Counted from the stretch's first letter, positions 1 through 44,515 are shown. The stretch: 44,515 nt of DNA from a virus (IMGVR_UViG_3300013947_000010); one strand, 5' to 3'. The notes: generated by a model from the sequence alone, not told the origin. Numbers and translations are program-made.

Positions 1-77
1 GGGTGCGCTGACATATTCGCCCGTCATAAAGATTTTCGGGTATTTCGCCCGTACCTTTGCGGAAATCTCTGAGAAGA
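1..77. repeat. Terminal direct repeat, identical to 44439..44515 (assembly overlap of a circular contig)
   Basis: The first 77 nt (gggtgcgctgacatattcgcc...ctctgagaaga) recur exactly as the last 77 nt. The start codon of ORF 44133..44465 lies inside the repeat and the gene order runs on across the junction. Confidence 0.9.
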
Positions 78-7192: not shown

Positions 7193-7205
7193 AACAACCT
7201 CCTAC

Positions 7206-7313
7206 AAGTAGTAAAAGTAGTTCAAATTCAAGATTTCCGGTAACTTTCACCAGATAGCCGTCCTACTGGCAAAAGTTTACGCAAAAACGGGTTTTCCACT
7301 ACTTTTACTACTT
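7206..7313. repeat. 108-bp near-palindromic element, copy 1 (PAL-1)
   Basis: Begins AAGTAGTAAAAGTAGT and ends ACTACTTTTACTACTT. The central hairpin is CCAGATA-GCCGTCC-TACTGG. It has the same length and layout as 11553..11660 and 30116..30223. Confidence 0.9.
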
Positions 7314-10142: not shown

Positions 10143-10487
10143 TCAATAATTCGCGGCGCGTCTTGCGTACATTGCTTTTAGACTTTCGGCGGGGGTCATA
10201 TCTGCGGCCATGCTGTAATGGGGCTTTTCCTCCACCGGGAGCGCGTCCCACCACTTTTTACCACCGCCCGAAATGCCGAACATTTCAATAAATGCGTTAA
10301 CATGGCGCATTGTGGTAACGCTGTACCCGCTCCACATTCGGACAAATTCGCCGCTTTTATCAATCTTGCAAACGATAGTATCATAGGACTGCAAAAGCGT
10401 TTCCCCGTCCTTTTCAATAACCTTTGCTTTCCCGTAAAAGGATTTTGCGCGGTCATAGCCGCCCGGCGTCAATTCGTAAATTTTCAT
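10143..10487 (-). CDS. Hypothetical protein, first gene of the island operon
   Basis: 114-aa ORF with TAGGAGGT 7 nt upstream of the ATG. It is the first gene downstream of promoter 10543..10571. Confidence 0.5.
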   Translation of the reverse strand: MKIYELTPGGYDRAKSFYGKAKVIEKDGETLLQSYDTIVCKIDKSGEFVRMWSGYSVTTMRHVNAFIEMFGISGGGKKWWDALPVEEKPHYSMAADMTPAESLKAMYARRAANY

Positions 10488-10542
10488 GTTGTTTACCTCC
10501 TATAATCTGAAACGGATTGTTTTCTTGTCTCTTGACGATTAT

Positions 10543-10571
10543 ATGTTAGCACAATTCGGATTGCTTGTCAA
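10543..10571 (-). promoter_or_regulatory. Sigma-A-type promoter of the island operon
   Basis: The minus strand reads TTGACA, a 17-nt spacer, then TAACAT with a TG extension (TGCTAACAT). Confidence 0.5.
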
Positions 10572-10786
10572 CCCCTTTTCGATAAATTTTCAATCTTTTT
10601 TGTGTTGGCTGTCCATACATATAATATAGAAAAACAACCCGCCGCAATTTCCCCATGTTCCCGCCGTTTTACTCTATTGCGGTAAAGTGTTAAAGTGATA
10701 CCCGCCAAATCCGCACGATTTTGTGAAAAAATCCGCCCCGAAAACCAAGCTGAAATCTCAGCCCAATTCCCGGAGCGGGTCTGCAT

Positions 10787-10902
10787 AGTCGAAAGTCGCA
10801 AAGTCGATAGTCGAAAGTCGTTAGTCGCTGTCAGAGTCGGAGTCGCTTTGAGAGTCGATAAGATACCGAGCTTTGATAGAGTCGGGGTCAATGTCGGAGT
10901 CG
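10787..10902. repeat. Dense array of 11 AGTCG (CGACT on the minus strand) pentamers spanning the terS stop codon
   Basis: On the plus strand AGTCG starts at 10787, 10794, 10802, 10809, 10816, 10823, 10835, 10841, 10853, 10880 and 10898. Five copies lie beyond the stop codon. Two further AAAAGTCGT copies are at 11438 and 11450, just upstream of the terS ribosome-binding site. Confidence 0.7.
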
Positions 10903-11420
10903 TTGTTCGTGTTGGGTGTGAGAACATACTCCGTCTTGTCTTGATAACGGAAATTGTTCTTACCGAGGAAGATACCCGCAACAGGGTTGACCTTGCCGGA
11001 GTTCATGTAGGTTTCCCATTGATTTTCCATCATAAAGTACGCCTTTTTAATGAAGTCCGTCACATCGGGGCGCAGGTTTGGCATATTTCCACGCCCTCCG
11101 AGGGGTGTATCATTCACAACAGCGTGTAGCCATTGTCTCGAATGTCCATTCAACGCAATAGCCATTCCTGCCACAGTAGGCTTCAAATCAGCTTCCGCAT
11201 AAATCCCGAAATACTCCGAGAGTCGCTGTGCAACTTGTTCAACATCGTCCATGTCAATGTTTTTCAGATTGAGGAGCTTAATGCTTATCCCCGTGATTTT
11301 CGCATTGTCACCCGGCTCAAGGTCAAAGCCGTTCATACCAATCACAGGTGAGTTTCCTCCACGGGGTTTCATCTTTGCTTTCTTAATCACCTGTACTTCA
11401 TCGTTTTTCTTATTTGCCAT
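10821..11420 (-). CDS. terS: Terminase small subunit
   Basis: 199-aa ORF with an HTH-like segment (PTVAGMAIALNGHSRQWL) and a motif typical of small terminases (KVNPVAGIFLGKNNFRYQDK). It is the first gene of the late region. The C-terminus is an acidic SDSDSDSD tail. Confidence 0.75.
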   Translation of the reverse strand: MANKKNDEVQVIKKAKMKPRGGNSPVIGMNGFDLEPGDNAKITGISIKLLNLKNIDMDDVEQVAQRLSEYFGIYAEADLKPTVAGMAIALNGHSRQWLHAVVNDTPLGGRGNMPNLRPDVTDFIKKAYFMMENQWETYMNSGKVNPVAGIFLGKNNFRYQDKTEYVLTPNTNNDSDIDPDSIKARYLIDSQSDSDSDSD

Positions 11421-11552
11421 CGGTTTTACCTCCTAAAAGTCGTTTCAAAAGTCGTGTTCCCATGTCCGTTTTGCCCCGTACAGACCCTTGAAAACAGACT
11501 CCTATGATGTAATAGAGTCCTCTCCCCGGAGAACTTCTTATTCTTAATGGAG

Positions 11553-11660
11553 AAGTAGTAAAAGTAGTGGAAAATCGATTTTTCCGGTAACTTTTGCCAG
11601 ATAGGGGGTCTACTGGAGAACTTATACGCAAAAACTGATTTTGAACTACTTTTACTACTT
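11553..11660. repeat. 108-bp near-palindromic element, copy 2 (PAL-2)
   Basis: The 16-bp arms match those of PAL-1 and PAL-3. The central hairpin is CCAGATA-GGGGGTC-TACTGG. The sequences just inside the arms are inverted relative to PAL-1 and PAL-3. Confidence 0.9.
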
Positions 11661-14515: not shown

Positions 14516-14713
14516 TCACCCCACTAAGTCCTTGAGGTGGACAATAATGCCGTCACACTTTTCAAGCCTTTCTCCGTTTTTCTTTAACTCAGCGTCCTCG
14601 AAGATGAACAAGTGTCCCTCATGGTCGGTGGCAAGACCACAGCCGTTTGATACAAGGGTCAGCTTGAGCATTGTCAAAACCCTGTTAATTCGCTGTTTGA
14701 CAACCTTATCCAT
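14516..14713 (-). CDS. Hypothetical protein
   Basis: 65-aa ORF in the packed operon. Confidence 0.4.
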   Translation of the reverse strand: MDKVVKQRINRVLTMLKLTLVSNGCGLATDHEGHLFIFEDAELKKNGERLEKCDGIIVHLKDLVG

Positions 14714-14724
14714 AATGTGTCCTC

Positions 14725-15024
14725 CTATGCTTTGTGTATATCTCGGTTTACCCGCTTACGGGTTTCTTCATCGGTCATTTTCTCTGCGCCCTGCATTACG
14801 CCCTCAATGGTGTCATGCAAGAGGGAGAGACGCTTTGCGTCTTCCTCGACCGAGATAGACTTGATGTACTCCGCAATGAGCTTTGCGTCATTGAGCGTCC
14901 AATGTGGCACTCTGCCGCTACCGAACAGACGCTTACCGACAGCGTTTATTGTTGCGGGTGTAAGACCAAGCTCATACGCTATCTCGGCATTGGTGTAGAT
15001 TGTTTCGCCTTTTGCGTTAATCAT
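14725..15024 (-). CDS. HTH-containing protein downstream of the MazF-like toxin (possible antitoxin or regulator)
   Basis: The best start is ATG at 15024 (MINAKGETIY) with GGAGGG 6 nt upstream. It has an HTH-like segment (NAEIAYELGLTPATINAVGKRL) and begins 2 nt after the toxin stop codon. Confidence 0.45.
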   Translation of the reverse strand: MINAKGETIYTNAEIAYELGLTPATINAVGKRLFGSGRVPHWTLNDAKLIAEYIKSISVEEDAKRLSLLHDTIEGVMQGAEKMTDEETRKRVNRDIHKA

Positions 15025-15026
15025 GG

Positions 15027-15368
15027 TTATCCCTCCGTAAGTCCGAAAGAGCAACGCAGAGCGGTATCAATACGGCTCATTTCCTCTTTCGTACAATGTC
15101 TAATGAAACTCTGCAACCTGTCCTTTGCGATTGTCTGAACATTTTCGCAGAGGGCAATAGAGGGGACTTTGCAAAGGACAGGTGCGTGAGTGGGAAGATA
15201 CTTCTTGTCTTTCGAGGTGAGGAAAACGACCTCGACATACGGCGAGTGCCGATTTCCTATATTGTTCGAGATAATAACGGCGGGTCTATTTCCGTGAGGT
15301 CTGCTTTCCACTACCGCCTTGCCCTCCCGCACGAACCAAATATCACCTCGGTAATATCGTCTGTTCAT
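15027..15368 (-). CDS. PemK/MazF-family toxin-like endoribonuclease
   Basis: The best start is ATG at 15368 (MNRRYYRGDIWFV). The motifs GDIWFV...NRPAVIISNN...VVFLTSK...PTH match the MazF/PemK fold signature. Confidence 0.7.
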   Translation of the reverse strand: MNRRYYRGDIWFVREGKAVVESRPHGNRPAVIISNNIGNRHSPYVEVVFLTSKDKKYLPTHAPVLCKVPSIALCENVQTIAKDRLQSFIRHCTKEEMSRIDTALRCSFGLTEG

Positions 15369-15388
15369 AGTGTGTTCTCCGTTCCACA

Positions 15389-15405
15389 CGCCCCATAAAG
15401 GGGCG
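15389..15405 (-). promoter_or_regulatory. GC hairpin downstream of VR2 (DGR target-recognition element)
   Basis: The plus strand reads CGCCCC-ATAAA-GGGGCG, the same hairpin as at 34274..34292. It is part of a 44-nt block that is 43/44 identical downstream of both VRs. Confidence 0.8.
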
Positions 15406-15410
15406 CAGAT

Positions 15411-16043
15411 TTAAGATTTAATAGAGAAAGCGGGGCGAACACCGGTGGCGACGGAAGCGGCGCTGTAGGCCGCATAACCAGAGTCGTGGACAGTGGCGAA
15501 ATCGGCGGCTGAGTCATTGGGCGTATTCTGCAACCAGTACCATTCCCAAGTACCCGTGTCCTTGCCTTGGAACGCGATACGGTTTCTAATATCTCCCATG
15601 AGCGGGAGGTATTCGCCGCCGACCTTATCCTCGTAGGGGTTCTTTCCAAAGACCTCCATAGCGGTAAGCAAACGGAGCTTATCGTCCTTATAAACGGGCT
15701 TCATACGAGCCTTGAGGGAGTCGGGGAAAGCGTCAAGGATTTCGCCGTTGAGCTTCTTACGAAGCGCACAGGCTTCATAGCCGCCCCTGTTGGTGCTGTT
15801 ATCGTTCATGGGATATTCGGTCTTGAGACAGTCCACGAACACAAACAGCATACCGTCAGTCTCTTTCCGCATAGCCATAGCGGAAACTTCTTCACCCGTC
15901 TTGAGGGTGAAGTCAATAATGTCACCGACTTCGTATTCATCGGTCTGCACCGTAGTAGAGCGGCGCACGGTCAGTTCCTCGGTCTGAATGTTAAGGAATT
16001 TCTCGAACTCAGCGAGGAGAGTCTTCTTTTCGGTATTAGTCAT
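15411..16043 (-). CDS. DGR target protein 2: stand-alone C-type-lectin-fold / DUF6273-like variable protein
   Basis: 210-aa ORF with no signal peptide or transmembrane segment. The C-terminus (WYWLQN...GVRPAFSIKS) parallels target 1 and contains VR2. Confidence 0.85.
   Translation of the reverse strand: MTNTEKKTLLAEFEKFLNIQTEELTVRRSTTVQTDEYEVGDIIDFTLKTGEEVSAMAMRKETDGMLFVFVDCLKTEYPMNDNSTNRGGYEACALRKKLNGEILDAFPDSLKARMKPVYKDDKLRLLTAMEVFGKNPYEDKVGGEYLPLMGDIRNRIAFQGKDTGTWEWYWLQNTPNDSAADFATVHDSGYAAYSAASVATGVRPAFSIKS
15432..15512 (-). repeat. DGR variable repeat 2 (VR2)
   Basis: The 81-nt alignment to the TR shows 16 differences, all at positions where the TR coding strand has adenine. Confidence 0.9.
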
Positions 16044-16086
16044 GATTTTATCCTCCTAAGATTATTTCTTGTCTTGCTGTGATTAT

Positions 16087-16115
16087 AAGATAACACACAA
16101 AAGATAGATTGTCAA
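16087..16115 (-). promoter_or_regulatory. Sigma-A-type promoter directly upstream of DGR target 2
   Basis: The minus strand reads GGTATTGACA, a 17-nt spacer, then TATCTT with a TG extension (TGTTATCTT). AGGAGG and the ATG at 16043 follow. Confidence 0.55.
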
Positions 16116-16133
16116 TACCTTTCAGATAATTTT

Positions 16134-16763
16134 TTATCCTTTTTGTGTTGTGTTGCGGAGGTCTGCCACATACGGTAATCCCGCCATCAGAATATCGCAG
16201 TATTCGTTCCACTCACTCAGCTTGTGTCCCTGCCGATAATCAAGAATGTTCATCACATTCTCGTAGGTCATAGTGACTGTGCGCCGCTGATTGTAGCTTG
16301 AGGGAAGAAGCTGTACCATCTGCCGCCATAGCTCCTTGTCCTTGGTCTCAAGGTACTTTAAGCGGTTCATGTTGAGAGCGTTGATAATGCAGGAGCAGAC
16401 AACATCTTTCGTCCATCTGTCGCAGTCCTCAAAGCTGAAATCCTCAACGGTGAACTCTTTTGCGGTCAGCTTGTGCATGGTGGAACAGGAATTGGCAGTT
16501 GTGCCGACCTTGTATGTATCAAACTCTTTCCACCAATACAGCGGGGCGGTAATGTCCATAGCGACAAAAATCTGTCGCAGATACTTTCTGTGCGGCTGTC
16601 CCGCCGCATACAGTTTCCGCATGAGGGCAAGGTCGTTTTCGCCGAGACACATTTTGTCGTAGTCAAACTTACTGTCCGACCTGTCCCAGCTGTTCAAAGG
16701 GTTTCTCATACCACGGATAGCGTGTTCAAATCCCCATGTAACGATGTGTTCTACCTTAATCAT
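16134..16763 (-). CDS. ThyX-like FAD-dependent thymidylate synthase (divergent)
   Basis: 209-aa ORF whose pattern (HRKYLRQIFV...ITAPLYWWKEFDTYKVGTTANSCSTMH) resembles the ThyX core. No search was run. Confidence 0.55.
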   Translation of the reverse strand: MIKVEHIVTWGFEHAIRGMRNPLNSWDRSDSKFDYDKMCLGENDLALMRKLYAAGQPHRKYLRQIFVAMDITAPLYWWKEFDTYKVGTTANSCSTMHKLTAKEFTVEDFSFEDCDRWTKDVVCSCIINALNMNRLKYLETKDKELWRQMVQLLPSSYNQRRTVTMTYENVMNILDYRQGHKLSEWNEYCDILMAGLPYVADLRNTTQKG

Positions 16764-20255: not shown

Positions 20256-21308
20256 TTACTTTTCCTCCTTGATTGCGCTTACCGTCATGCGGTAGCTGGT
20301 GTCTTGTGTGGTGCTAACATACTTGTCATAAACGCCGTCAGCTTTGAGAGCTTCATCGTTATAGACCGTTTTCGTGGTGTCGTTCCTCGCAAGTGTCCAA
20401 CAATAAGCCGAGCCTTTAACCTCAACCTTTTTGTCACCGGGTCGGAACTGCGTTTTGGCGTACTCCTTGAGAAGTTCACCGATTTTCTTGAGTCGCTTCT
20501 CCTGCTTGGAAATTGCCGCCGTTGCCTTGTCCACCTCGGCTTTAAGGGCTTCGGCTTCCTTAACAAGAGCTTCAATATCCGTGTCGGGCGCAAGAGTGTT
20601 GGTACGGAGAGCCTTGAGAATGTCAGCGTCTTTTCGCTCGTCATAGACGGGGGAAATGCCGCTGTCCACATGGTCTTTCCACCATTTCTCCACACGAGCG
20701 ACCTTATCAGCGAAATCGGGGTAACGCTCAGAGACTTTGAACTCCTTTGTGATGGTGTTCTTGACGCTCGGCTTGTACTGTTCGGGGTTCGCATAATCCT
20801 TTTCTTCAAGGAAAGAAGCGACCATGATTACATTGTCAACACCGAGGAGATAAGCGTACAAAGCCGCTTGCAGAGCGTAATATTCGGGAATATCGTCTGC
20901 CCAATCTTCGGAACGCTTTGTCGTTTTCATTTCGAGAACCGTGTCAACCGTTCCGTCTTCGTCCACGCCGAGGTAGTCCCACATACCGCCGAAATGAGGG
21001 CTTTCGGGGAAGAAATCGCCCCATGTCTTATTGAAGTAGTCCTTGCCGTAGCGGTCGGTAGGGGTGATAATGTCCATACCGTAGGACTTCTTCATATAAT
21101 CAGCCTGTTTCGGCTCGATTGCTTTACCCGCTTTGGTATAAATCGTGTCCTCAAACGGAAGCTCAAATGTCTTGGTGATAGCGCACCACATTTCAAACTC
21201 CGTACTCCACGGGTTCAGACCGAGGATTGTTGCGAACCGTGTACCCGTGACCTTTTTGGTCTTTTTCGGCGGGGCAATCTTAATCTGTTTACTGTCAAGC
21301 CATTCCAT
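20256..21308 (-). CDS. YqaJ/lambda-Exo-like recombination exonuclease
   Basis: The N-terminus (GTRFATILGLNPWSTEFEMW) and a PD-(D/E)xK-type motif (VLEMKTT) fit the family. Its ATG overlaps the upstream stop codon (TAATG). Confidence 0.75.
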   Translation of the reverse strand: MEWLDSKQIKIAPPKKTKKVTGTRFATILGLNPWSTEFEMWCAITKTFELPFEDTIYTKAGKAIEPKQADYMKKSYGMDIITPTDRYGKDYFNKTWGDFFPESPHFGGMWDYLGVDEDGTVDTVLEMKTTKRSEDWADDIPEYYALQAALYAYLLGVDNVIMVASFLEEKDYANPEQYKPSVKNTITKEFKVSERYPDFADKVARVEKWWKDHVDSGISPVYDERKDADILKALRTNTLAPDTDIEALVKEAEALKAEVDKATAAISKQEKRLKKIGELLKEYAKTQFRPGDKKVEVKGSAYCWTLARNDTTKTVYNDEALKADGVYDKYVSTTQDTSYRMTVSAIKEEK

Positions 21309-22003
21309 TACGCTTCCTCCTCCAACATAGTGGTGATACGCTCAATGAGCGTTTCGCAGTCACTCTTGGAAATCTTTGTGAAGCCCTCGGTCTGAATTGC
21401 GATTTTCGCAATCATTTCTTCCTTGTCGGGCTGTGCGTCCTTGAGCTTCTTGAGAACACGCTTGAGACCCTTGAGCTGGGTATCGGTGGCATTATCGGCG
21501 GGAGCTGTCAGTTCCTTTTTTACTTCCTCTCGCTGTTCGGGCGTGGCAGGGGGAGCTTTCGGAGCAGGGGTGGTATCGTCCTTTTCGGTGGTAGGCTCGA
21601 TGGTGTCCGGCTCACAAATATCCAGCGCAATCATATAGAGATAACGGCGAAGATAGGTCTGAGCAGAGCCGAGAGCCTGTACGGGGTTCACCATCTTGTT
21701 CTCGGACGGATAGCGCATGGGGCAGGAGAACTGAATAGTTTCATCGGGGTTGTCGGTGTTCACCATCGTCATAATCGCCTGTTCATCGGTGAAAGAGACG
21801 AGCGGGACAAGACCGACCTCGGTAAAGATACCGATTGCGATAGGAACAATATCGTCAAGCTCAAAATACTTGTACCGCAGTTCCATGTGCTTACCCGACT
21901 TCGATACCCCGTGTTCGAGGAACTTTGCCCTCGCCGTGAGTAACTTCTGATAAACATTCATAGGGGTGGAGTTTTCTGCTTTCTTGGTAGTGGTGGTAGC
22001 CAT
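21308..22003 (-). CDS. Possible internally initiated stand-alone ERF annealase (nested in the polymerase ORF)
   Basis: The in-frame ATG at 22003 (MATTTTKKAENS) is preceded by GAGGAGGT (22013..22020) with a 9-nt spacer, exactly at the polymerase/ERF domain boundary. Confidence 0.35.
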   Translation of the reverse strand: MATTTTKKAENSTPMNVYQKLLTARAKFLEHGVSKSGKHMELRYKYFELDDIVPIAIGIFTEVGLVPLVSFTDEQAIMTMVNTDNPDETIQFSCPMRYPSENKMVNPVQALGSAQTYLRRYLYMIALDICEPDTIEPTTEKDDTTPAPKAPPATPEQREEVKKELTAPADNATDTQLKGLKRVLKKLKDAQPDKEEMIAKIAIQTEGFTKISKSDCETLIERITTMLEEEA

Positions 22004-23803
22004 TTTTCGTTTACCTCCTCTTGGTTTCTTTTCGGGTTTGATACCCATAAAATCGTTAATTCGCTTTTTTGCCATTTCGATGTAAAATGTTCGGTCTACA
22101 TCGTCAATGGATAGGTGATTGTCATTGTCGATAATGCAATGGTCGGGGAGCATTTCGATTTTTGCGGTTGCGTCTGTTTCCGCTTTTACCTTGAACAGCT
22201 TCCCGTATCGCTCGTCAGCCGTGGCATACACACGGTTTACCTTTTGTACAGGGACTTGTTCACCATCGACAATGTGGTAGGCTTCACGGTATTTTGCCCC
22301 GGCCTTGGCTATCAGCTGGAAGTCAAAAATATTCGTACTGCCATTGATTGTGTCCTCAACGGGTGTACCATGCACGAAATACTCAATAAGAGCTTTCTTG
22401 ACGATAACCATGTTGTTGTTTATCGCCCATGCGCCCTTTACGGACACACCGTAGTTCAGATACCCGCCAACGGTCTTGACCTCGCCATCGGTTTTAATCA
22501 TCAAGAGGTTGTTGACATCTTTAATCCAAACTTTCTGAACATCATCGACCTCAAGCTCGAACTTGGTTTCGGCTTCCCATGCGTGGGCGATTTCGTCCAC
22601 AAGAGCAAGCTCGGATTTGTCGATGGAATACATCAAGCCGTCCGTGTTAAGGTTGAGTAGCTTGATGGTTTTACAGGCGTTCAGCAGACGCATAGTAAGA
22701 ACGGTAAGGAAAAGCTGTCCCGATATACGCAGAGAGCGAGTCGGGAGCGGGTCATACAGGTCGTTATAACGATTTTCCTGTGCGCCCGATACCGTGTTGA
22801 GCGGTAGCTTCAAGTCCTTTGCGGTCTGCTTATCGCCGTTGTGCTTTGCCTGTATGCGGTCACGCTTGATAGCGTAGAACAATTCGGGGTCGGGAACATT
22901 ACGAGAGAGGTAGTTGTATATCTCAATCAGTGAGGGGTACAGGCTCGAAACATCACGGTTTTGGATAACTCTGTCCTCTGTCGCTTCTTCGTAATATCCT
23001 GTCAGACTGCCGTGGACACCGCCCCATGCGTATTTGCAGGGCATACCGCCAATTTCAATCTCGAACGAGGTCTTAAACAGGACATCATCGGGGATTGACA
23101 TATCGTGGATTGTCTCAAAGAAATCCAAGATAGGCTTTGGGATAACGGCGGTATCAAGATTTTCGGGATAGACATACTCTCGCCCATCGTTCCACTCTTT
23201 ACGCTCTGCCCGTAACATCATGGCGGTCAGCTTGGCGTTAGTAGCGGCAAGGGACTTCGCTTCATCAATTCCAGCTCGTTTCCCAAGGTTCTTTTTGGTC
23301 TTGAGATAGTCCGCTCGGAGCTTCATCAATTCATGGGTAGCGTCTACATCGTGAGTACAGTAGTATACCGTCTGCCGTAGCTCGTCCTCGGTGAGAGGAC
23401 GGTCAAGGTCGAACGATACCTCCGTCTCTTGAATATCCATACCCATGTGACCCTCGATAGCCTTGAGGGATAGACCCAACTGAACATCGTCTCGAATGTC
23501 CACATTGTTGAAGCGGAAATAGAACTCTTTCAACGGGGCATACTCCCAACCTCTACCGCCGCCGATAAGGAAATCGTTGAGTGTTTTTATCTCCTGCGGG
23601 GAGAAGTCACACACGGCGGCTTTGATGATAAATTGGTCGTAGTGCTTGGAGTTAAACCCGACATAGATACCGTCCTCGAAAATACACTCTCGGAGGGCTT
23701 CGCTGTCGTTGTGAATGACCGTATGTACCCCGCTCTCAACATCTTTGAAAACCACAATCCAGTCAAAGGCGAAAACCTCAACATCGTAGATAATCAGTCT
23801 CAT
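21308..23803 (-). CDS. Family-B DNA polymerase fused in frame to a C-terminal ERF-type single-strand annealing domain
   Basis: Exonuclease motifs IYDVEVF, FNSKHYDQF and YYCTHDVDAT. Polymerase motifs DVSSLYPS, KLPLNTVSGA and NLNTDG. The C-terminal 230 aa carry ERF hallmarks (LRYKYFELDDIVP and GSAQTYLRRYLYMIALDI). Confidence 0.8.
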   Translation of the reverse strand: MRLIIYDVEVFAFDWIVVFKDVESGVHTVIHNDSEALRECIFEDGIYVGFNSKHYDQFIIKAAVCDFSPQEIKTLNDFLIGGGRGWEYAPLKEFYFRFNNVDIRDDVQLGLSLKAIEGHMGMDIQETEVSFDLDRPLTEDELRQTVYYCTHDVDATHELMKLRADYLKTKKNLGKRAGIDEAKSLAATNAKLTAMMLRAERKEWNDGREYVYPENLDTAVIPKPILDFFETIHDMSIPDDVLFKTSFEIEIGGMPCKYAWGGVHGSLTGYYEEATEDRVIQNRDVSSLYPSLIEIYNYLSRNVPDPELFYAIKRDRIQAKHNGDKQTAKDLKLPLNTVSGAQENRYNDLYDPLPTRSLRISGQLFLTVLTMRLLNACKTIKLLNLNTDGLMYSIDKSELALVDEIAHAWEAETKFELEVDDVQKVWIKDVNNLLMIKTDGEVKTVGGYLNYGVSVKGAWAINNNMVIVKKALIEYFVHGTPVEDTINGSTNIFDFQLIAKAGAKYREAYHIVDGEQVPVQKVNRVYATADERYGKLFKVKAETDATAKIEMLPDHCIIDNDNHLSIDDVDRTFYIEMAKKRINDFMGIKPEKKPRGGKRKMATTTTKKAENSTPMNVYQKLLTARAKFLEHGVSKSGKHMELRYKYFELDDIVPIAIGIFTEVGLVPLVSFTDEQAIMTMVNTDNPDETIQFSCPMRYPSENKMVNPVQALGSAQTYLRRYLYMIALDICEPDTIEPTTEKDDTTPAPKAPPATPEQREEVKKELTAPADNATDTQLKGLKRVLKKLKDAQPDKEEMIAKIAIQTEGFTKISKSDCETLIERITTMLEEEA

Positions 23804-30085: not shown

Positions 30086-30115
30086 GATAATTTCCTCCTA
30101 AAATTTTGATTGTTG

Positions 30116-30223
30116 AAGTAGTAAAAGTAGTTCAATTTCGGTTTTTGCGTAAACTTTCGCCAGTATGCGCGTATCTGGGAGAAGTTTACCGGAAAAACTG
30201 ATTTTCCACTACTTTTACTACTT
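30116..30223. repeat. 108-bp near-palindromic element, copy 3 (PAL-3)
   Basis: It has the same 16-bp arms. The central hairpin is CCAGTA-TGCGCG-TATCTGG. It lies between the endolysin stop codon (3 nt away) and the holin start codon (30 nt away). Confidence 0.9.
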
Positions 30224-32076: not shown

Positions 32077-32388
32077 TTATACCTCCTTTCCCGTCAGCAG
32101 GACAGTCATTGCTTGACGAAGTTCCTCAATCGTGCGATTTCGGTCTTCCTCCGCTTTCTGTTGCTCGGACTTCTGACCGAGAACAAACCAAGATTTTCCG
32201 TCACGAACGATGTTACTGAGGAGAACCATGTCGGTATAGACCTCCTCATTCTCACCATCGAAAATCTTTACCGTACCGAGCTTGTCCTCGAATACGGAGT
32301 CGGCAATCTCACCTTGGGCAATATAGTTATTGCCGTTAAGGGTGAGATTTTCCAACTGTGTACCGTCACTCAGAGTGATTTTGTACAT
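32077..32388 (-). CDS. Hypothetical protein
   Basis: The best start is ATG at 32388 (MYKITLSDG) with GGAGG 9 nt upstream. It overlaps the 3' end of the RT gene. Confidence 0.5.
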   Translation of the reverse strand: MYKITLSDGTQLENLTLNGNNYIAQGEIADSVFEDKLGTVKIFDGENEEVYTDMVLLSNIVRDGKSWFVLGQKSEQQKAEEDRNRTIEELRQAMTVLLTGKEV

Positions 32389-33574
32389 TCTCAAGAACCT
32401 CCTTTAATTGATTGAACAGGGTATCTAAATTTTGTCGTTGCAGTTTGCTCATGATTTTGTAGTGACCTTTGAACCATGATTTGTACCAATTCTCAAACGC
32501 TACGGGAGTTATAACGCCTTTCTCGGCAACCTTTTTCATTTTCCTACGCATATCGGTAAGCCGCTTCGGATTGATTTTCTGAACCACTCTGCCCGTTTCC
32601 GTCAGCGAGTATTGCACTTGCAGAAATCTCCAATAATCAGACAGCTTACAGATACGGGTCTTTCGTAGGTTGACCGTGATACCAATGGTGTCCGCTATTA
32701 CCGTAATATCCTTGAGTAGAGCTTCTAAAAACTCTTTGCTCTCGTCTATCACATAGCTATCATCGGTGTATCGAGCGTAAAACGGCACGGAACAGACGAT
32801 TTTCACATAATTGTCTATGGGTATCGGATAACTGATACCCGCCGCTTGCGCTACTTGGTCTCCGATGTTTAGGTGCTTTCCCATGAACTTTTCGCCCGTC
32901 AAAAGCTGTTTGTCGATTTGAGCGTGTTCCAATGAATTGAAAACCGTGTGCATACAGTTCTTAAATTCATCATCGTCCATATAGGAAACATCAACCTTTG
33001 CACGGTCAAGCGTTTTGCGTAGTAACCACAGGGCGGTAGGGTCTGACACATACTTTTCCACCAACTCATAGAAAACATCGTGACGAATATTGTCGTAGTA
33101 TTTCGAGTAGTCAATCAGTAATATGTAGCCCTCGTTGGAATGGTGTTGTTGGTAATACTTCCGAAGATGGACTAACAATCTCTTTCGTGATAAATCTATC
33201 CCTCTATCTTTTAGACTCGCACAGTTATCATAGATTAGGTACGGTCTGAGGGAGGGCGTTAAGACTTCATCACACAAGCTATGTTTTACAATCCTATCAT
33301 CGAACTGTTCACCGCTCACCCATCGTGTACGACCTCGTTCGTGCAATACGAAGTCCGAGGTTGGCTTAAATTCGTAGGTTCGTTCTTTGAGTTCCCGTTG
33401 TATCTTCGACAGACCGATAAGGTAACTCATTTCAAATTTCTGTATTGGCGGCTTCCAATCGCTACCTTGCTTGGCTCGTAGGAAGCCGTCATACAGAGCA
33501 TTTCCATCAAATATCTCACGCTTATAACCGCAGTTCTCGAAAGAAGCGGTGTCGTGTTTAGCATTTACCGTCAT
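32366..33574 (-). CDS. DGR reverse transcriptase
   Basis: 402-aa ORF with the RT motif C (FYARYTDDSYV) and the NIGDQVAQAAG segment at the position of the DGR-type IGxxxSQ motif. It lies immediately downstream of the TR. Confidence 0.9.
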   Translation of the reverse strand: MTVNAKHDTASFENCGYKREIFDGNALYDGFLRAKQGSDWKPPIQKFEMSYLIGLSKIQRELKERTYEFKPTSDFVLHERGRTRWVSGEQFDDRIVKHSLCDEVLTPSLRPYLIYDNCASLKDRGIDLSRKRLLVHLRKYYQQHHSNEGYILLIDYSKYYDNIRHDVFYELVEKYVSDPTALWLLRKTLDRAKVDVSYMDDDEFKNCMHTVFNSLEHAQIDKQLLTGEKFMGKHLNIGDQVAQAAGISYPIPIDNYVKIVCSVPFYARYTDDSYVIDESKEFLEALLKDITVIADTIGITVNLRKTRICKLSDYWRFLQVQYSLTETGRVVQKINPKRLTDMRRKMKKVAEKGVITPVAFENWYKSWFKGHYKIMSKLQRQNLDTLFNQLKEVLENVQNHSE

Positions 33575-33602: not shown

Positions 33603-33637
33603 ACTCCGAAACGCTCAAATGGCTATTAAATCGGAGT
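33603..33637 (-). promoter_or_regulatory. Hairpin in the TR-to-RT spacer (candidate DGR RNA spacer structure)
   Basis: On the plus strand ACTCCGA (33603..33609) pairs with TCGGAGT (33631..33637), enclosing a 21-nt loop. Confidence 0.35.
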
Positions 33638-34255
33638 ATCGAAATCGGGGCGAACACCGTTGTCGTTGGAAGCGTTGTTGTAGTTCGCATTACCATTGTT
33701 GTTGACATTGGCGAAATTGGCGGCTGAAACAGAAATTGCCCCTTTGAATTTGTTGTCAGATTTTCTCCAACCTTTGATAAGGTTTACTTCTGCCTGTATC
33801 ATTTCCCCGAACCGAAGATACTGGTTCACATCAACAGGAAGCGTTTCAATGGCATATTGCAATTCTTGAGTGAGCGTGTAACACAGCCCGATTGCCCTAT
33901 CTTGGTGAAGTCTCCTCTCTGTGAGTTCTTCCTGTACAGTAGGGTAGATACTGTTTGCAATGTATACCTCCCGTGTGATTGCACGAAGACAATTCACAAT
34001 GGTTTTGCGCTCGTCCTCGATGAACCACTCGTCAAATGCGTCCCATCGTCTTTTCTGCCGTGTGTAAGTAGCTTGCTGTTTTTCATCAAGCTCATCAAAC
34101 GGCTTCCCGAACCGTTTTTCCAATCGCTTTTCGGCTTTGACTGTATCAAAACCGAAATCTCGGAGAAGCAAATCGGTAATATCCTTTCGCAGTTTGGTTA
34201 ATTGATGGAAAACCTCGAACTGTGAGGGTTTCCGTTTGCTTTTCAGTACAGACAT
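33626..34255 (-). CDS. Avd-like DGR accessory protein; the ORF runs on through the TR
   Basis: The best start is ATG at 34255 (MSVLKSKRKPSQF) with GGAGGAA upstream. The protein is helical and basic, with an Avd-like C-terminal helix (AEVNLIKGWRKSD). The last 30 or so codons are the TR itself (AANFANVNNNGNANYNNASNDNGVRP). Confidence 0.55.
   Translation of the reverse strand: MSVLKSKRKPSQFEVFHQLTKLRKDITDLLLRDFGFDTVKAEKRLEKRFGKPFDELDEKQQATYTRQKRRWDAFDEWFIEDERKTIVNCLRAITREVYIANSIYPTVQEELTERRLHQDRAIGLCYTLTQELQYAIETLPVDVNQYLRFGEMIQAEVNLIKGWRKSDNKFKGAISVSAANFANVNNNGNANYNNASNDNGVRPDFDTPI
33647..33727 (-). repeat. DGR template repeat (TR)
   Basis: The 81-nt core contains 25 adenines on the coding strand, mostly in AAY codons. 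It aligns without gaps to VR1 and VR2. Confidence 0.9.
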
Positions 34256-34273
34256 TGTAGTTCCTCCATGTGT

Positions 34274-34292
34274 GCGCCCCATAAAGGGGCGC
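34274..34292 (-). promoter_or_regulatory. GC hairpin downstream of VR1 (DGR target-recognition element)
   Basis: The sequence is GCGCCCC-ATAAA-GGGGCGC, located 5 nt past the target-1 stop codon. Confidence 0.8.
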
Positions 34293-34296
34293 AGAT

Positions 34297-35472
34297 TTAA
34301 GATTTAATAGAGAAAGCGGGGCGAACACCGAGGCCGGCGGAAGCGTAGCCGTAGGCCGCAAGACCAGTGTCGTCGACATAGGCGAAATGGGCGGCTGATG
34401 CAACATCTCTCAGCCAGAACCATTGTCTATTGGAAATCATAGACGGGTCGTGAGCAAAGAGCGGGAACTGAGACTTGTCGATGATGTACAGATACGGAGT
34501 GGTCGAGCCATCGTTACCCGCACCGAAAATCTTACCGCCGTAAACATTCTGTTCGGTCATAAGCTCAACTGTACTGTTGTACCAAGAACCACCGCTCGGC
34601 TTACCGTTGGTAACGGCATTGACGAGCAACTGACGATGGGACAGGATATGACTTGAGCCAAATGCGCTGTTGATTTGTGTCTTTGCCTGTGCAAGCCCCT
34701 CTGTGTACATCTTAGAGCCGATGTAACCACCCGTAGTGATGTTCGTGTCGTTCATAACATGGGTGTACAGGTTTGTATCGGGGACAATTACGACATGATG
34801 GGTGGTGCAAGAGGTATCTCCCGTCTTGTAGTAATAATCGAAAGCGGCAATACGCCAGTTGACACCACCGATTACCCAGTAATCTCCGATGTACAGGTCG
34901 GCAAAAGTGCCGTTTGCAATAGCCGCCCATTGTGCGGCGGTCACGCTCGTGCCGAGGTTCTTACCACGATAGATAGCATTGTGCGCCCCCGCATTATTGA
35001 ACAGCAGAGCCGCCAGCTCGGTTGCACTTGCCTGTGCCGCCTGTGCGGAATTTGCCGCCGAGGTTGCGCTTCCACTCGCCGCTGTCGCAGAGTTCGCCGC
35101 CGCCGTTGCTTTCTGAGAAGCGGTAGTAGCGGAGGAACTTGCAGAAGAAGCCGAGCTTGCGGCGGCGGTTTTTGCGTTCTCAGCGTTCTGTGCCGATGTT
35201 GCCGCTTCGGACGCTTTTGTGGTCGCTGTACTGGCGGCATTGGTAGCCTGTGTTGCTTTCTGAGAAATGGTGTCCATGTTCCCGGCAAGCTGGTTCATGG
35301 CGGCGTTCATGGCGTTTGCGTCTGCCGCCCCGAAGAAAGACTTTTCCTTTTTGGTGTACACGGTCATGTCCTTAAAGGAAACTGTACCGTCCTCGTTGTT
35401 GACCTGTGCATACTTTTTCAACCCATTCCACACAGCGTCTTCATAATCCGTGGGTAAATTTGTCCATGCCAT
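34297..35472 (-). CDS. DGR target protein 1: tail fibre / receptor-binding protein with a C-type-lectin-fold variable C-terminus
   Basis: 391-aa ORF with a MAWTNLPTDY N-terminus, an Ala/Ser/Thr-rich coiled stalk, and a C-terminus (WFWLRD...GVRPAFSIKS) that contains VR1. Confidence 0.85.
   Translation of the reverse strand: MAWTNLPTDYEDAVWNGLKKYAQVNNEDGTVSFKDMTVYTKKEKSFFGAADANAMNAAMNQLAGNMDTISQKATQATNAASTATTKASEAATSAQNAENAKTAAASSASSASSSATTASQKATAAANSATAASGSATSAANSAQAAQASATELAALLFNNAGAHNAIYRGKNLGTSVTAAQWAAIANGTFADLYIGDYWVIGGVNWRIAAFDYYYKTGDTSCTTHHVVIVPDTNLYTHVMNDTNITTGGYIGSKMYTEGLAQAKTQINSAFGSSHILSHRQLLVNAVTNGKPSGGSWYNSTVELMTEQNVYGGKIFGAGNDGSTTPYLYIIDKSQFPLFAHDPSMISNRQWFWLRDVASAAHFAYVDDTGLAAYGYASAGLGVRPAFSIKS
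34318..34398 (-). repeat. DGR variable repeat 1 (VR1)
   Basis: The 81-nt alignment to the TR shows 17 differences, all at TR adenine positions. Confidence 0.9.
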
Positions 35473-44132: not shown

Positions 44133-44465
44133 TTACCTCCTGTAAATAATGTGATTTTTGTCTATCACAGCCCGGTACCGTCCGAGCATACGATAGATTG
44201 TTGCGTCCTGTGTATTCGGTATAGGTTCGAGAAGCATACGAGTGAAATTGCGTTCCATAAGAAGTTCATCTATGAAAGCGGCAATCTCTTTGCACTCGGC
44301 TTTCTTACCTGTTTTTTTGTTCGAGTAGACATTAAGCTCATAAGTCACCGCCGCATGATTTTCCTGCCCACTCTGCGTCTGAGAGTTTCGGAATGTGGCG
44401 TTGTCTATCTCTACGAGAGATACGCAAGGAAAAGAGGCGGGTGCGCTGACATATTCGCCCGTCAT
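44133..44465 (-). CDS. Tail completion / tail terminator-position protein
   Basis: 110-aa ORF between the gp10-like gene (across the junction) and the major tail gene. Its start codon lies inside the 77-nt terminal repeat. Confidence 0.5.
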   Translation of the reverse strand: MTGEYVSAPASFPCVSLVEIDNATFRNSQTQSGQENHAAVTYELNVYSNKKTGKKAECKEIAAFIDELLMERNFTRMLLEPIPNTQDATIYRMLGRYRAVIDKNHIIYRR

Positions 44466-44515
44466 AAAGATTTTCGGGTATTTCGCCCGTACCTTTGCGG
44501 AAATCTCTGAGAAGA
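44439..44515. repeat. Terminal direct repeat, identical to 1..77
   Basis: Exact 77-nt match to the start of the window. Confidence 0.9.

What the first reader, a model, noticed from the sequence alone, without database searches (positions are those of the whole stretch)
15389..16115. Second, remote DGR variable repeat in a small non-structural early-region protein
VR2 (15432..15512) aligns without gaps to the TR, which lies 18 kb away, and differs at 16 positions. Every one of these is a TR adenine. Downstream of VR2 is a 44-nt block that is 43/44 identical to the block after VR1, including the GC hairpin CGCCCC-ATAAA-GGGGCG, so the site looks competent for mutagenic homing. The host gene encodes a 210-aa protein consisting of little more than the lectin-fold/DUF6273-like domain. 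It has no signal peptide, no transmembrane segment and no fibre stalk. It lies in the replication/early module, has its own near-consensus promoter, and is followed directly by a MazF-like toxin. A hypervariable, apparently cytoplasmic ligand-binding protein in this context suggests diversified recognition of an intracellular target. That target could be a host defence or a sensor input to the toxin. This would be different from receptor binding by the virion.
Basis: partly seen in the sequence, partly recalled or inferred. Interest (0 to 1): 0.85.

Follow-up and report, generated by a model that had tools for sequence, protein, structure and literature searches.

The report
Second active DGR target, early-region lectin-like protein
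A gut temperate phage uses one mutagenic retroelement to rewrite its tail fibre and also a small soluble lectin-like protein in its DNA-replication gene block; this remote site is real and active, but similar cases are already published and what the protein binds is still unknown.

Summary
VR2 (15432-15512, minus strand) matches the TR 18,215 nt away without gaps. All 16 mismatches fall on TR adenines (chance about 6e-11). A GC hairpin follows VR2 and VR1 but not the TR. VR2 is not a relic. Near-clonal relatives differ from the window at 3 or 17 nt within 2.6 kb, and every difference lies inside VR2 at a TR-adenine site. Two of these genomes have identical VR1. The host gene encodes a 210-aa protein with one N-terminal helix and one DUF6273 domain (AF2 pLDDT 95) and no export signal. 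It has its own TTGACA-17-TGnTATCTT promoter and sits between two primase genes. Homologues form a large family. In every context examined (about 65 loci, including cultured phages Shimadzu and Fontainebleau) they lie in early or replication modules, next to helicases and DNA methylases and never next to structural genes. MazF follows the gene in only 6 of 48 surveyed loci, so a toxin link is lineage-specific. Remote, probably non-structural phage DGR targets are already published (Shimadzu orf43, Quimbyvirus, Lelie/CP11, Toutatisvirus, Nature 2025). This is a new member of a known kind whose ligand remains unknown.

The parts
15432..15512 (-). VR2, the second (remote) variable repeat of the DGR. 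It encodes residues 178-204 of the small target protein.
   Evidence: Gapless match to the TR with 16 mismatches, all at TR adenines (P = 6e-11). Every difference among near-clonal relatives falls here and at A sites.
15388..15431 (-). VR2 3' flank: the IMH-type junction (GCTTTC, where the TR has GATTTC), the gene's last codons and stop, and a GC hairpin (about 15388-15406, GCGCCCC-TTTAT-GGGGCGT).
   Evidence: 43/44 identical to the VR1 flank. A hairpin is predicted after VR2, after VR1 and after the relatives' VR2, but not after the TR. In the window this flank is VR1-type up to the hairpin, whereas relatives carry a different VR2-type flank.
15411..16043 (-). Small DGR target gene: 210 aa, an N-terminal helix plus a DUF6273 domain, PHROG 21980.
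   Evidence: Pfam DUF6273 E 2e-11. phrog_21980 E 2.5e-28. AF2 pLDDT 95.4. 657 homologues and 1035 cluster representatives.
16052..16057 (-). Ribosome-binding site AGGAGG, 8 nt upstream of the ATG.
   Evidence: Read directly from the sequence. Conserved in relatives.
16087..16115 (-). Sigma-70/SigA-type promoter TTGACA-17-(TG)TATCTT for the target gene.
   Evidence: Matches 10 of 12 consensus positions. Conserved in L002, L003, L009, L013 (perfect consensus) and L015. It belongs to an 80-nt cassette that is repeated at 10521-10600.
15027..15368 (-). PemK/MazF-like endoribonuclease gene directly downstream. It is a lineage-specific neighbour and is not shown to be part of the DGR function.
   Evidence: Pfam PemK_toxin E 1e-19. 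phrog_1936 E 2e-25. Present in close relatives and in L015 at 53% identity. Found in only 6 of 48 surveyed loci.
33647..33727 (-). Template repeat (TR). It lies inside the 3' end of the Avd-like ORF.
   Evidence: Identical in relatives L019-L024.
32366..33574 (-). DGR reverse transcriptase.
   Evidence: RVT_1 E 8e-7. phrog_1423 reverse transcriptase E 6e-49.
33626..34282 (-). Avd-like accessory gene. Its start is uncertain, and relatives are called as 209 aa.
   Evidence: phrog_3206 'Avd protein of DGR' E 5e-4. Sits between target 1 and the RT.
34297..35472 (-). Target 1: a tail-fibre-like protein (391 aa) with a C-terminal DUF6273-like domain that carries VR1 (34318-34398).
   Evidence: PHROG tail-fibre hits. 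28% identical to the small target over the lectin-like domain. VR1 has 17/17 mismatches at A.

Best explanation
VR2 is a genuine, currently active trans-target of the phage's single DGR.

Mechanism. The Avd-TR-RT cassette at 32.4-34.3 kb makes adenine-mutagenised cDNA from TR RNA. That cDNA replaces either VR1, in the tail fibre next to the cassette, or VR2, 18.2 kb away. Both VRs end in the same GC-rich 3' element (GGTGTTCGCCCCG followed by CTTTC). Both are followed by a GC hairpin that the TR lacks. This step is inferred from the established BPP-1 model of mutagenic homing.

The protein. VR2 recodes 13 codons (11 AAY, one TAC and one GAC in the TR). In the model these lie on a beta-hairpin and the two following strands of a small soluble DUF6273 domain.

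Expression and family. The gene has its own SigA-type promoter and a strong RBS and sits inside the replication module. It belongs to a large family of stand-alone DGR target proteins that always occupy early or replication modules in phages of Clostridia. The neighbours are typically a helicase upstream and a DNA methylase, or sometimes MazF, downstream.

Most likely role. I take it to be an early-expressed protein that is not part of the tail apparatus. Its binding surface is diversified to keep pace with a variable ligand in phage-host, or phage-phage, conflict. This is not a second virion receptor-binding protein. Activity and context are shown. Timing of expression, cellular location and ligand are inferred.
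For: A-only mismatches to the TR.

Population evidence. In 36 close relatives the 13 A-containing TR codons carry 1.9-3.6 bits of entropy (6-14 residue types). Most non-A codons within the VR are invariant. The rest of the protein averages 0.24 bits. Four VR2 alleles sit on an otherwise identical 210-aa backbone. Over 2,633 nt, L028/L029 differ from the window at 17 nt and L030/L031 at 3 nt. All of these lie in VR2 and all at A sites. The contigs behind L028 and L030 differ at only 2 nt in 12.5 kb and have identical VR1.

Target-site features. The 3' element and hairpin are shared by the VRs and absent from the TR.

Homologues that are also remote VRs. Shimadzu orf43 and Fontainebleau WAK78934 each show 15/15 mismatches at A and a downstream hairpin. 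Shimadzu VR2 was seen to diversify experimentally (bioRxiv 10.1101/575076).

Fold. AF2 pLDDT 95.4. The only significant solved match is the DUF6273 domain of 9qa6.

Context. The gene lies between primases in the window. Homologues lie between a methyltransferase and Erf, between DNA Pol I and a helicase, and between a helicase and a methylase just after the lysogeny switch. In 55 metagenome loci the upstream neighbour is a DEAD/ResIII helicase in 22. The downstream neighbour is a DNA methylase in 11 of 48 and MazF in 6 of 48. None is structural.

Other. The promoter is conserved. No transmembrane segment or signal peptide. The N-terminal helix is absent from many homologues.
Against: No expression, localisation or virion-composition data exist for any family member.

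Every phage DGR target with a proven function is a receptor-binding protein, and the published guesses for small DUF6273 targets are Mtd-like RBPs (PMC10743442, bioRxiv 10.1101/2024.10.15.618418).

All window genes are co-directional, so read-through into late transcription cannot be excluded.

Phage structural proteins need no signal peptide, so the lack of one does not argue against a virion role.

The lectin-fold assignment rests on a model. Direct Foldseek hits to C-type lectins are weak (E > 0.5).
Confidence: 0.6

Rival explanations
1. The small protein is a virion-associated accessory receptor-binding or adhesion module, Mtd-like or decoration-like, that happens to be encoded outside the structural module. 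VR2 would then broaden host or mucus binding as VR1 does.
For: All functionally proven phage DGR targets are RBPs (established knowledge on BPP-1 Mtd). Target 1 of the same phage is a tail-fibre-like protein with a distantly homologous DUF6273 domain (28% identity). BFVD fold matches include large tail-fibre-like DUF6273 proteins. Published authors favour this reading.
Against: In every context examined, about 65 loci from several unrelated phage backbones, the gene sits in the early/replication module and never beside structural genes. The protein has no beta-prism, beta-sandwich or stalk domain for attachment. The only extra element, an N-terminal helix, is missing in many homologues. In this lineage the gene has its own host-type promoter.
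Confidence: 0.25
2. The hypervariable protein is the sensor, regulator or antitoxin of the adjacent MazF-like toxin. Ligand binding by the diversified surface would control toxin activity, for example as prophage-encoded abortive infection against other phages.
For: MazF follows the gene by about 40 nt under the same promoter. No MazE-type antitoxin is recognisable nearby. In L003-L006 the downstream HTH ORF is absent, so the DUF6273 gene is MazF's only small neighbour. The pair co-diverged, with X 52% and MazF 53% identical in L015. MazF is the immediate downstream gene in three sub-clades.
Against: Only 6 of 48 surveyed loci have MazF downstream. L009 and L013 (67% identical X), the helicase-methylase lineage, Shimadzu and Fontainebleau all lack it. 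The model shows no antitoxin-like fold. No PADLOC hit for either protein. A phage MazF may simply be a host-takeover nuclease that needs no antitoxin.
Confidence: 0.07
3. VR2 is a relic or a chance repeat, a decayed former target that is no longer mutagenised.
For: The exact window allele recurs in 8 contigs from three sequencing projects, so it can be stable over some time.
Against: A-site-only rewriting occurs among near-clonal genomes that show no other change in 2.6 kb. Four alleles sit on one backbone. The homing elements are intact. The chance probability of the A-only mismatch pattern is 6e-11.
Confidence: 0.01

Closest known systems
Roseburia phage Shimadzu orf43 / VR2 (Cornuault et al. 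2020; bioRxiv 10.1101/575076)
   Same: It is a homologous small protein (26% identity, tblastn E 7e-7). It lies about 13 kb from the RT in the replication/recombination module, between a methyltransferase and Erf. Its VR sits at the 3' end with 15/15 A-site mismatches and a downstream GC hairpin. Both of its VRs were shown experimentally to diversify.
   Different: The phage backbone is different (a P2-like myovirus of Roseburia). There is no MazF neighbour and no dedicated promoter was noted. The authors left the function open and did not comment on the module.
Small DGR targets of Faecalibacterium prophages Lelie/CP11 (PMC11792537) and the second VR gene of Toutatisvirus (bioRxiv 10.1101/2024.10.15.618418)
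   Same: One DGR serves a large structural-type target and a small DUF6273-only target with a C-terminal VR. In Toutatisvirus the second VR is 17,480 nt from the TR and the gene is core (present in 98.8% of genomes). Both VRs vary among cognate genomes.
   Different: These are different phages (35.7 kb and 53.4 kb against 44.4 kb here), and the first target there is Hoc-like. No sequence match to the window protein was found in the phage collection at E 1e-5. The published interpretation is receptor binding.
Quimbyvirus second DGR target (Benler et al. 2021, PMC8008677) and the four gut prophages with distal second VRs (Nature 2025, PMC12629997)
   Same: There is a second VR distal to the structural module in a C-type-lectin protein.
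   Different: In Benler 2021 the hosts are Bacteroidota, and in the Nature 2025 paper mostly so. Homology to the window protein was not tested. The Quimbyvirus target lies on the opposite strand in a defence island rather than inside the replication operon.
Bordetella phage BPP-1 Mtd
   Same: It is a DGR-diversified lectin-fold protein with the VR at the C-terminus, and the target site has an IMH and a hairpin (established knowledge).
   Different: Mtd is a 381-aa trimer with beta-prism and beta-sandwich domains. It is encoded in the tail module next to the DGR and sits on the tail fibres. The window protein has none of these features.
nd4/nd12 tgt2 proteins (Baykov et al. 2023, PMC10743442)
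   Same: They are small proteins made of a single DUF6273/C-lec domain flanked by short helices. The VR forms a surface beta-hairpin, which matches the AF2 model here.
   Different: They are encoded inside the DGR cassette next to a tentaclin, not remotely in the replication module.
N-terminal DUF6273 domain of Thomasclavelia ramosa IgA peptidase (PDB 9qa6; PMC12402451)
   Same: It is the only solved structure with significant similarity. The profile hit has E 5e-4 and includes the ...GVRPAF motif. Foldseek gives E 4.5e-4 and TMq 0.55.
   Different: It is a domain of a secreted, cell-wall-anchored bacterial protease. It is not a DGR target, and the paper does not define the domain's role.

Membership tests
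DGR variable repeat / target site | A TR-VR repeat pair whose differences are confined to TR adenines | tested here: met
   VR2 has 16/16 and VR1 17/17 mismatches at A, with 25 A in 81 nt. P = 6e-11.
DGR variable repeat / target site | A cognate cassette (reverse transcriptase, Avd-type accessory gene, TR) in the same genome and the same orientation | tested here: met
   RT matches phrog_1423 at E 6e-49 and RVT_1 at E 8e-7. Avd matches phrog_3206 only weakly, at E 5e-4. The gene order target1-Avd/TR-RT is read from the sequence.
DGR variable repeat / target site | A 3' IMH shared by the VRs but altered in the TR, plus a GC hairpin downstream of the VR and not of the TR | tested here: met
   Both VRs read GGTGTTCGCCCCG-CTTTC where the TR reads ...G-ATTTC. 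Hairpins of 7-8 bp follow VR2 and VR1, and none follows the TR.
DGR variable repeat / target site | Ongoing diversification restricted to A sites in natural populations | tested here: met
   All 17 and all 3 differences lie in VR2 at A sites, with none elsewhere in 2.6 kb. VR1 is unchanged in the same pair of genomes.
DGR variable repeat / target site | RT-dependent cDNA-mediated homing demonstrated directly | not testable with these tools
   This needs an RT-mutant lysogen and deep sequencing.
DUF6273 / C-type-lectin-fold DGR variable proteins | Sequence membership in Pfam DUF6273 above the gathering score | tested here: met
   44.4 bits against a cut-off of 23.5, residues 76-210.
DUF6273 / C-type-lectin-fold DGR variable proteins | C-type-lectin-like fold | tested here: inconclusive
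Mtd-type virion receptor-binding protein | N-terminal beta-prism and beta-sandwich domains that trimerise and dock on the tail fibre | tested here: not met
   The model has one helix (2-18), a linker and one globular domain. The helix is absent in many homologues.
Mtd-type virion receptor-binding protein | Encoded in the tail module adjacent to the DGR cassette | tested here: not met
   The gene is 18 kb away, between primase genes. The family-wide context is early or replication.
Mtd-type virion receptor-binding protein | Physical presence in the virion | not testable with these tools
   No proteomic data were found in the papers read.
Type II MazEF toxin-antitoxin pair with the DUF6273 protein as partner | A PemK/MazF toxin with an adjacent cognate antitoxin, and the pairing conserved across homologues | tested here: not met
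   The toxin is present. No MazE/PemI-type protein is recognised. MazF follows the DUF6273 gene in only 6 of 48 loci.
Remote non-structural phage DGR targets near counter-defence genes (Quimbyvirus type) | A second VR distal from the RT, outside the structural module, in a lectin-type protein, next to defence or counter-defence genes | tested here: met
   The VR is 18.2 kb from the TR in the replication module. MazF is adjacent in the window. DNA methylases are the downstream neighbour in 11 of 48 family loci. Sequence homology to the Quimbyvirus protein was not tested.

The most novel reading that the evidence does not exclude
The stand-alone DUF6273 proteins encoded in early modules of Clostridia phages could be cytoplasmic, DGR-diversified binders. 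They would act as a phage-encoded 'adaptive' recognition system that neutralises or senses variable intracellular host-defence proteins or competitor-phage proteins. In some lineages this would be wired to a MazF nuclease. That would extend DGR function in phages from receptor switching to intracellular counter-defence.
Probability: 0.25. Interest if true: 0.85.

Novelty: new member of a known kind. Interest (0 to 1): 0.45.

Why it matters
DGRs are the only known natural system of targeted protein hypermutation in prokaryotes. In phages, their only proven use is switching receptors.

A growing set of gut phages aim the same retroelement at a second protein outside the virion genes, and nobody knows what these proteins bind. 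This window gives an unusually clean case, because VR2 is rewritten in near-clonal genomes while VR1 stays fixed.

The family survey here adds two points:
- These small targets form one large homologous family.
- In Clostridia phages they are always embedded among replication and anti-restriction genes.

Cultured members exist: Shimadzu in Roseburia intestinalis and Fontainebleau in Acutalibacter muris. The question 'is this an intracellular, diversifiable counter-defence binder?' can therefore be tested directly. If the answer is yes, it would change how DGRs and phage counter-defence are understood. It would also supply a natural scaffold for evolving intracellular binders.

Tried and rejected
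1. AF2 on the shallow alignment of close relatives (A2) gave an unusable model (pLDDT 39). It was repeated with a deep alignment (A3).

2. From gene-call tables I first concluded that MazF is absent from close relatives L002-L004. Direct DNA comparison showed the gene is present but was simply not listed. The conclusion was withdrawn.

3. The viral-contig scan returned one locus. The genome-contig scan returned five, after a first attempt failed because the alignment was too diverse. The neighbour survey therefore rests on the metagenome scan. It uses my own crude ORF calling, limited to the plus strand, with ORFs of at least 50 aa and gaps under 400 nt. Counts are approximate.

4. Megablast of 20 kb of the window against GenBank phages found nothing. 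The phage lineage itself is undescribed in that collection.

5. PADLOC gave no hit for the target, MazF or their neighbours. NCBIfam gave nothing for the target.

6. Rfam gave no family anywhere in the window, and no tRNAs were found.

7. 'VR2 is a relic' was rejected.

8. 'The target is the MazF antitoxin as a family property' was rejected.

9. A terminator role for the post-VR hairpin was rejected. No T-run follows it, and the same hairpin follows VR1.

10. The published (ISME J) version of the Shimadzu paper was not held. The bioRxiv version was used instead.

Full report
OBSERVATION

All genes of interest lie on the minus strand. The window's first 77 nt repeat at its end, so it is a complete, circularly assembled genome of about 44.4 kb.

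Three repeats are in gapless register: VR2 at 15432-15512, the TR at 33647-33727 (18,215 nt away) and VR1 at 34318-34398. VR2 differs from the TR at 16 of 81 positions and VR1 at 17. Every difference is at one of the TR's 25 adenines. The chance of this is 6e-11 for VR2 and 8e-12 for VR1.

The 44 nt after VR2 (15388-15431) are 43/44 identical to those after VR1. Both flanks fold into a GC hairpin with a 7-8 bp stem and a 5-nt loop. The TR flank has no such hairpin. The VRs read ...CGCCCCG-CTTTC where the TR reads ...CGCCCCG-ATTTC. This is the IMH/IMH* type of asymmetry known from BPP-1 (established knowledge).

The cassette is canonical:
- a tail-fibre-like target 1 (34297-35472)
- an Avd-like ORF whose 3' end contains the TR (33626-34282)
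- the RT (32366-33574; phrog_1423, E 6e-49)

VR2 IS ACTIVE

The 35 closest homologues are 79-95% identical to the window protein. They are almost invariant over the first ~177 residues (mean entropy 0.24 bits).

Hypervariation occurs exactly at the codons whose TR counterpart contains adenine. These are 11 AAY codons, one TAC and one GAC, and they carry 1.9-3.6 bits with 6-14 residue types. Most non-A codons inside the VR are invariant.

The window protein's own 90% cluster holds four VR2 alleles on an otherwise identical 210-aa backbone.

At the DNA level, over 2,633 nt centred on the gene:
- L028 and L029 differ from the window at 17 positions.
- L030 and L031 differ at 3 positions.
- Every one of these lies inside VR2 at a TR-adenine site, and nothing else differs.

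L028 and L030 come from two 44,557-bp contigs. Their DGR regions (L020, L024) differ at 2 nt in 12.5 kb and carry identical VR1. So VR2 was rewritten while VR1 stayed fixed.

The three changes in L030 lie at the 3', IMH-proximal end of VR2. That would fit a partial transfer anchored at the 3' end (inference from the BPP-1 homing model).

VR1 also varies at A sites among relatives with an identical RT and TR (L022, L023).

THE PROTEIN

Pfam assigns DUF6273 (44.4 bits against a cut-off of 23.5). PHROGs assigns phrog_21980, of unknown function.

With a deep alignment, AF2 gives pLDDT 95.4 and pTM 0.85. The model has a helix at residues 2-18, a linker and one globular domain. The VR forms a beta-hairpin (180-194) and the next two strands.

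There is no hydrophobic segment. The protein is distantly homologous (28% identity) to the C-terminal domain of target 1.

The family is large. There are 657 hits in the 90%-clustered database and 1035 representatives at 50% clustering. Most are stand-alone proteins of 180-220 aa. Even at 50% identity the scaffold SAAxFAxVxxxGxAxYxxASxxxGVRPAFKI is kept, with the x positions variable. The family as a whole therefore looks like dedicated DGR targets. The N-terminal helix is missing in many members.

CONTEXT

PHROG and Pfam annotation gives a temperate siphovirus-type map. In order of transcription:
- terminase, portal and head genes
- tail genes and tape measure
- tail fibre (target 1), then Avd/TR and RT
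- endolysin and holin
- serine integrase and repressor on the opposite strand
- an early operon: transglycosylase, Holliday-junction resolvase, helicase, methyltransferase, a DNA polymerase-Erf fusion, an exonuclease, and further genes
- PriCT_1 primase, then phrog_6721
- the VR2 gene, then MazF, a 99-aa HTH ORF and a 65-aa ORF
- D5 primase/helicase

The VR2 gene therefore sits in the core of the replication module. A promoter-like site, TTGACA-17-TATCTT with TG (10 of 12 matches), lies 44 nt upstream of the ATG. It is conserved down to homologues of 52% identity, and L009 and L013 carry a perfect consensus.

The same placement recurs in unrelated phage backbones:
- Shimadzu orf43 lies between a methyltransferase and Erf.
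- Fontainebleau WAK78934 lies between DNA Pol I and a helicase.
- A lineage at 52-56% identity has it between a DEAD helicase and a DNA methylase, a few genes after the lysogeny switch.
- In L013 and L009 it lies between PriCT and the D5 primase.

Both cultured phages carry a DGR. In each, the homologue's 3' end is a remote VR with 15/15 A-site mismatches and a downstream hairpin.

In 55 metagenome loci the upstream neighbour is a DEAD/ResIII helicase in 22. The downstream neighbour is a DNA methylase in 11 of 48 and MazF in 6 of 48. No structural family appears on either side. These counts rest on crude ORF calling.

MazF

The toxin gene is real (PemK E 1e-19; phrog_1936). It is present in the close relatives and in a 52%-identity lineage, where it has co-diverged with the target gene (53% identity). 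It is absent from closer homologues (L009 and L013, 67% identity) and from most of the family.

No antitoxin is recognisable. The downstream HTH ORF is dispensable, since L003-L006 lack it.

The adjacency is therefore an old accessory feature of one phage lineage and not a property of the target family. A functional coupling in this lineage is not excluded, but it has no positive support.

LITERATURE

Two-target DGRs with a small, remote DUF6273-only target are already described:
- Shimadzu. Both VRs were experimentally diversified (2% of virion reads) and were mutated in all five ultravirulent isolates (bioRxiv 10.1101/575076).
- Faecalibacterium prophages Lelie and CP11 (PMC11792537).
- Toutatisvirus (bioRxiv 10.1101/2024.10.15.618418).

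The specific idea that a distal second target is non-structural and tied to defence or counter-defence genes was published for Quimbyvirus (PMC8008677). It was repeated for four gut prophages (PMC12629997).

None of the papers I read reports virion proteomics or expression timing for such a protein. The authors who studied DUF6273 targets guess receptor binding.

In those papers I did not find three things that are shown here:
- These small targets form one large homologous family.
- They have an invariant early-module position next to helicases and methylases.
- In this lineage they have a dedicated consensus promoter and an occasional MazF neighbour.

VERDICT

'Active remote VR in a small, non-exported, early-module lectin-like protein' is solid. 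'Intracellular target' is a reasonable but untested inference. 'Input to the toxin' is unlikely as a general function.

The finding is a new member of a known kind. It is interesting mainly because it sharpens an open question and points to cultured model systems where that question can be tested.

Noticed in passing
window 15388-15431, compared with L002-L006 and L019-L024: In the window lineage the 3' flank of VR2 is VR1-type, running from the IMH to the hairpin loop and including the last codons (...FSIKS*). All other relatives have a distinct VR2-type flank (...FKI*, CTTTCAAAATCTAAAATCACGCCCC...). Past the hairpin the sequence returns to VR2-type. This looks like a short patch of gene conversion from VR1 to VR2. 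It shortens the hairpin stem by about 1 bp, yet four VR2 alleles exist on this backbone.
   Followed up: partly
window 7193-7313, 11540-11660, 30103-30223 (minus strand): There are three copies (about 75-80% identical) of a ~110-nt intergenic element. Each has perfect 16-nt terminal inverted repeats (AAGTAGTAAAAGTAGT ... ACTACTTTTACTACTT). As RNA the element folds into one long hairpin (-38 kcal/mol, z = -6.7). The copies lie just upstream of a lipoprotein-like gene, of gene 10821-11420 and of the holin. No Rfam match was found.
   Followed up: partly
window 10521-10600 and 16065-16144: An 80-nt promoter cassette (TTGACA-17-TG-extended -10, with conserved flanks on both sides) occurs twice at 70% identity. 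One copy drives the VR2 gene and the other drives gene 10143-10487. The shared flanks suggest common regulation.
   Followed up: partly
window 33626-34282 (minus strand): The TR lies inside the 3' end of the Avd-like ORF and in frame with it. The predicted Avd protein therefore ends with a TR-encoded peptide (...SAANFANVNNNGNANYNNASNDNGVRPDFDTPI) that matches the target-family PHROG 21980. Relatives are called the same way, as 209 aa.
   Followed up: no
L023 (ENA ERZ26858455 NODE_1197), compared with window 31.6-34.4 kb: A cassette with an identical RT protein, TR and VR1 flank sits in a different phage backbone that has a tyrosine integrase and different lysis and early genes. The DGR cassette with target 1 therefore appears to move between phages as a module.
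   Followed up: no
window 15027-15368, 14725-15024, 14516-14713: The MazF-like gene has no recognisable antitoxin. The 99-aa HTH ORF and the 65-aa ORF downstream are present in the window, L002 and L025-L030, but both are missing in L003-L006, where MazF abuts the primase gene. L009 and L013 keep the 65-aa ORF but lack MazF and the HTH ORF.
   Followed up: partly
window 21308-23803 (minus strand): One 831-aa ORF joins a DNA polymerase domain (phrog_1252, residues 2-591) to an Erf-like single-strand annealing domain (residues 600-829). It is conserved as 831-833 aa in relatives.
   Followed up: no
window 1-77 and 44439-44515; 39390-39772 and 40188-40549: An exact 77-nt terminal repeat marks a circular or terminally redundant assembly of about 44,438 bp. 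The tape-measure gene contains tandem 72-nt and 81-nt repeats.
   Followed up: no
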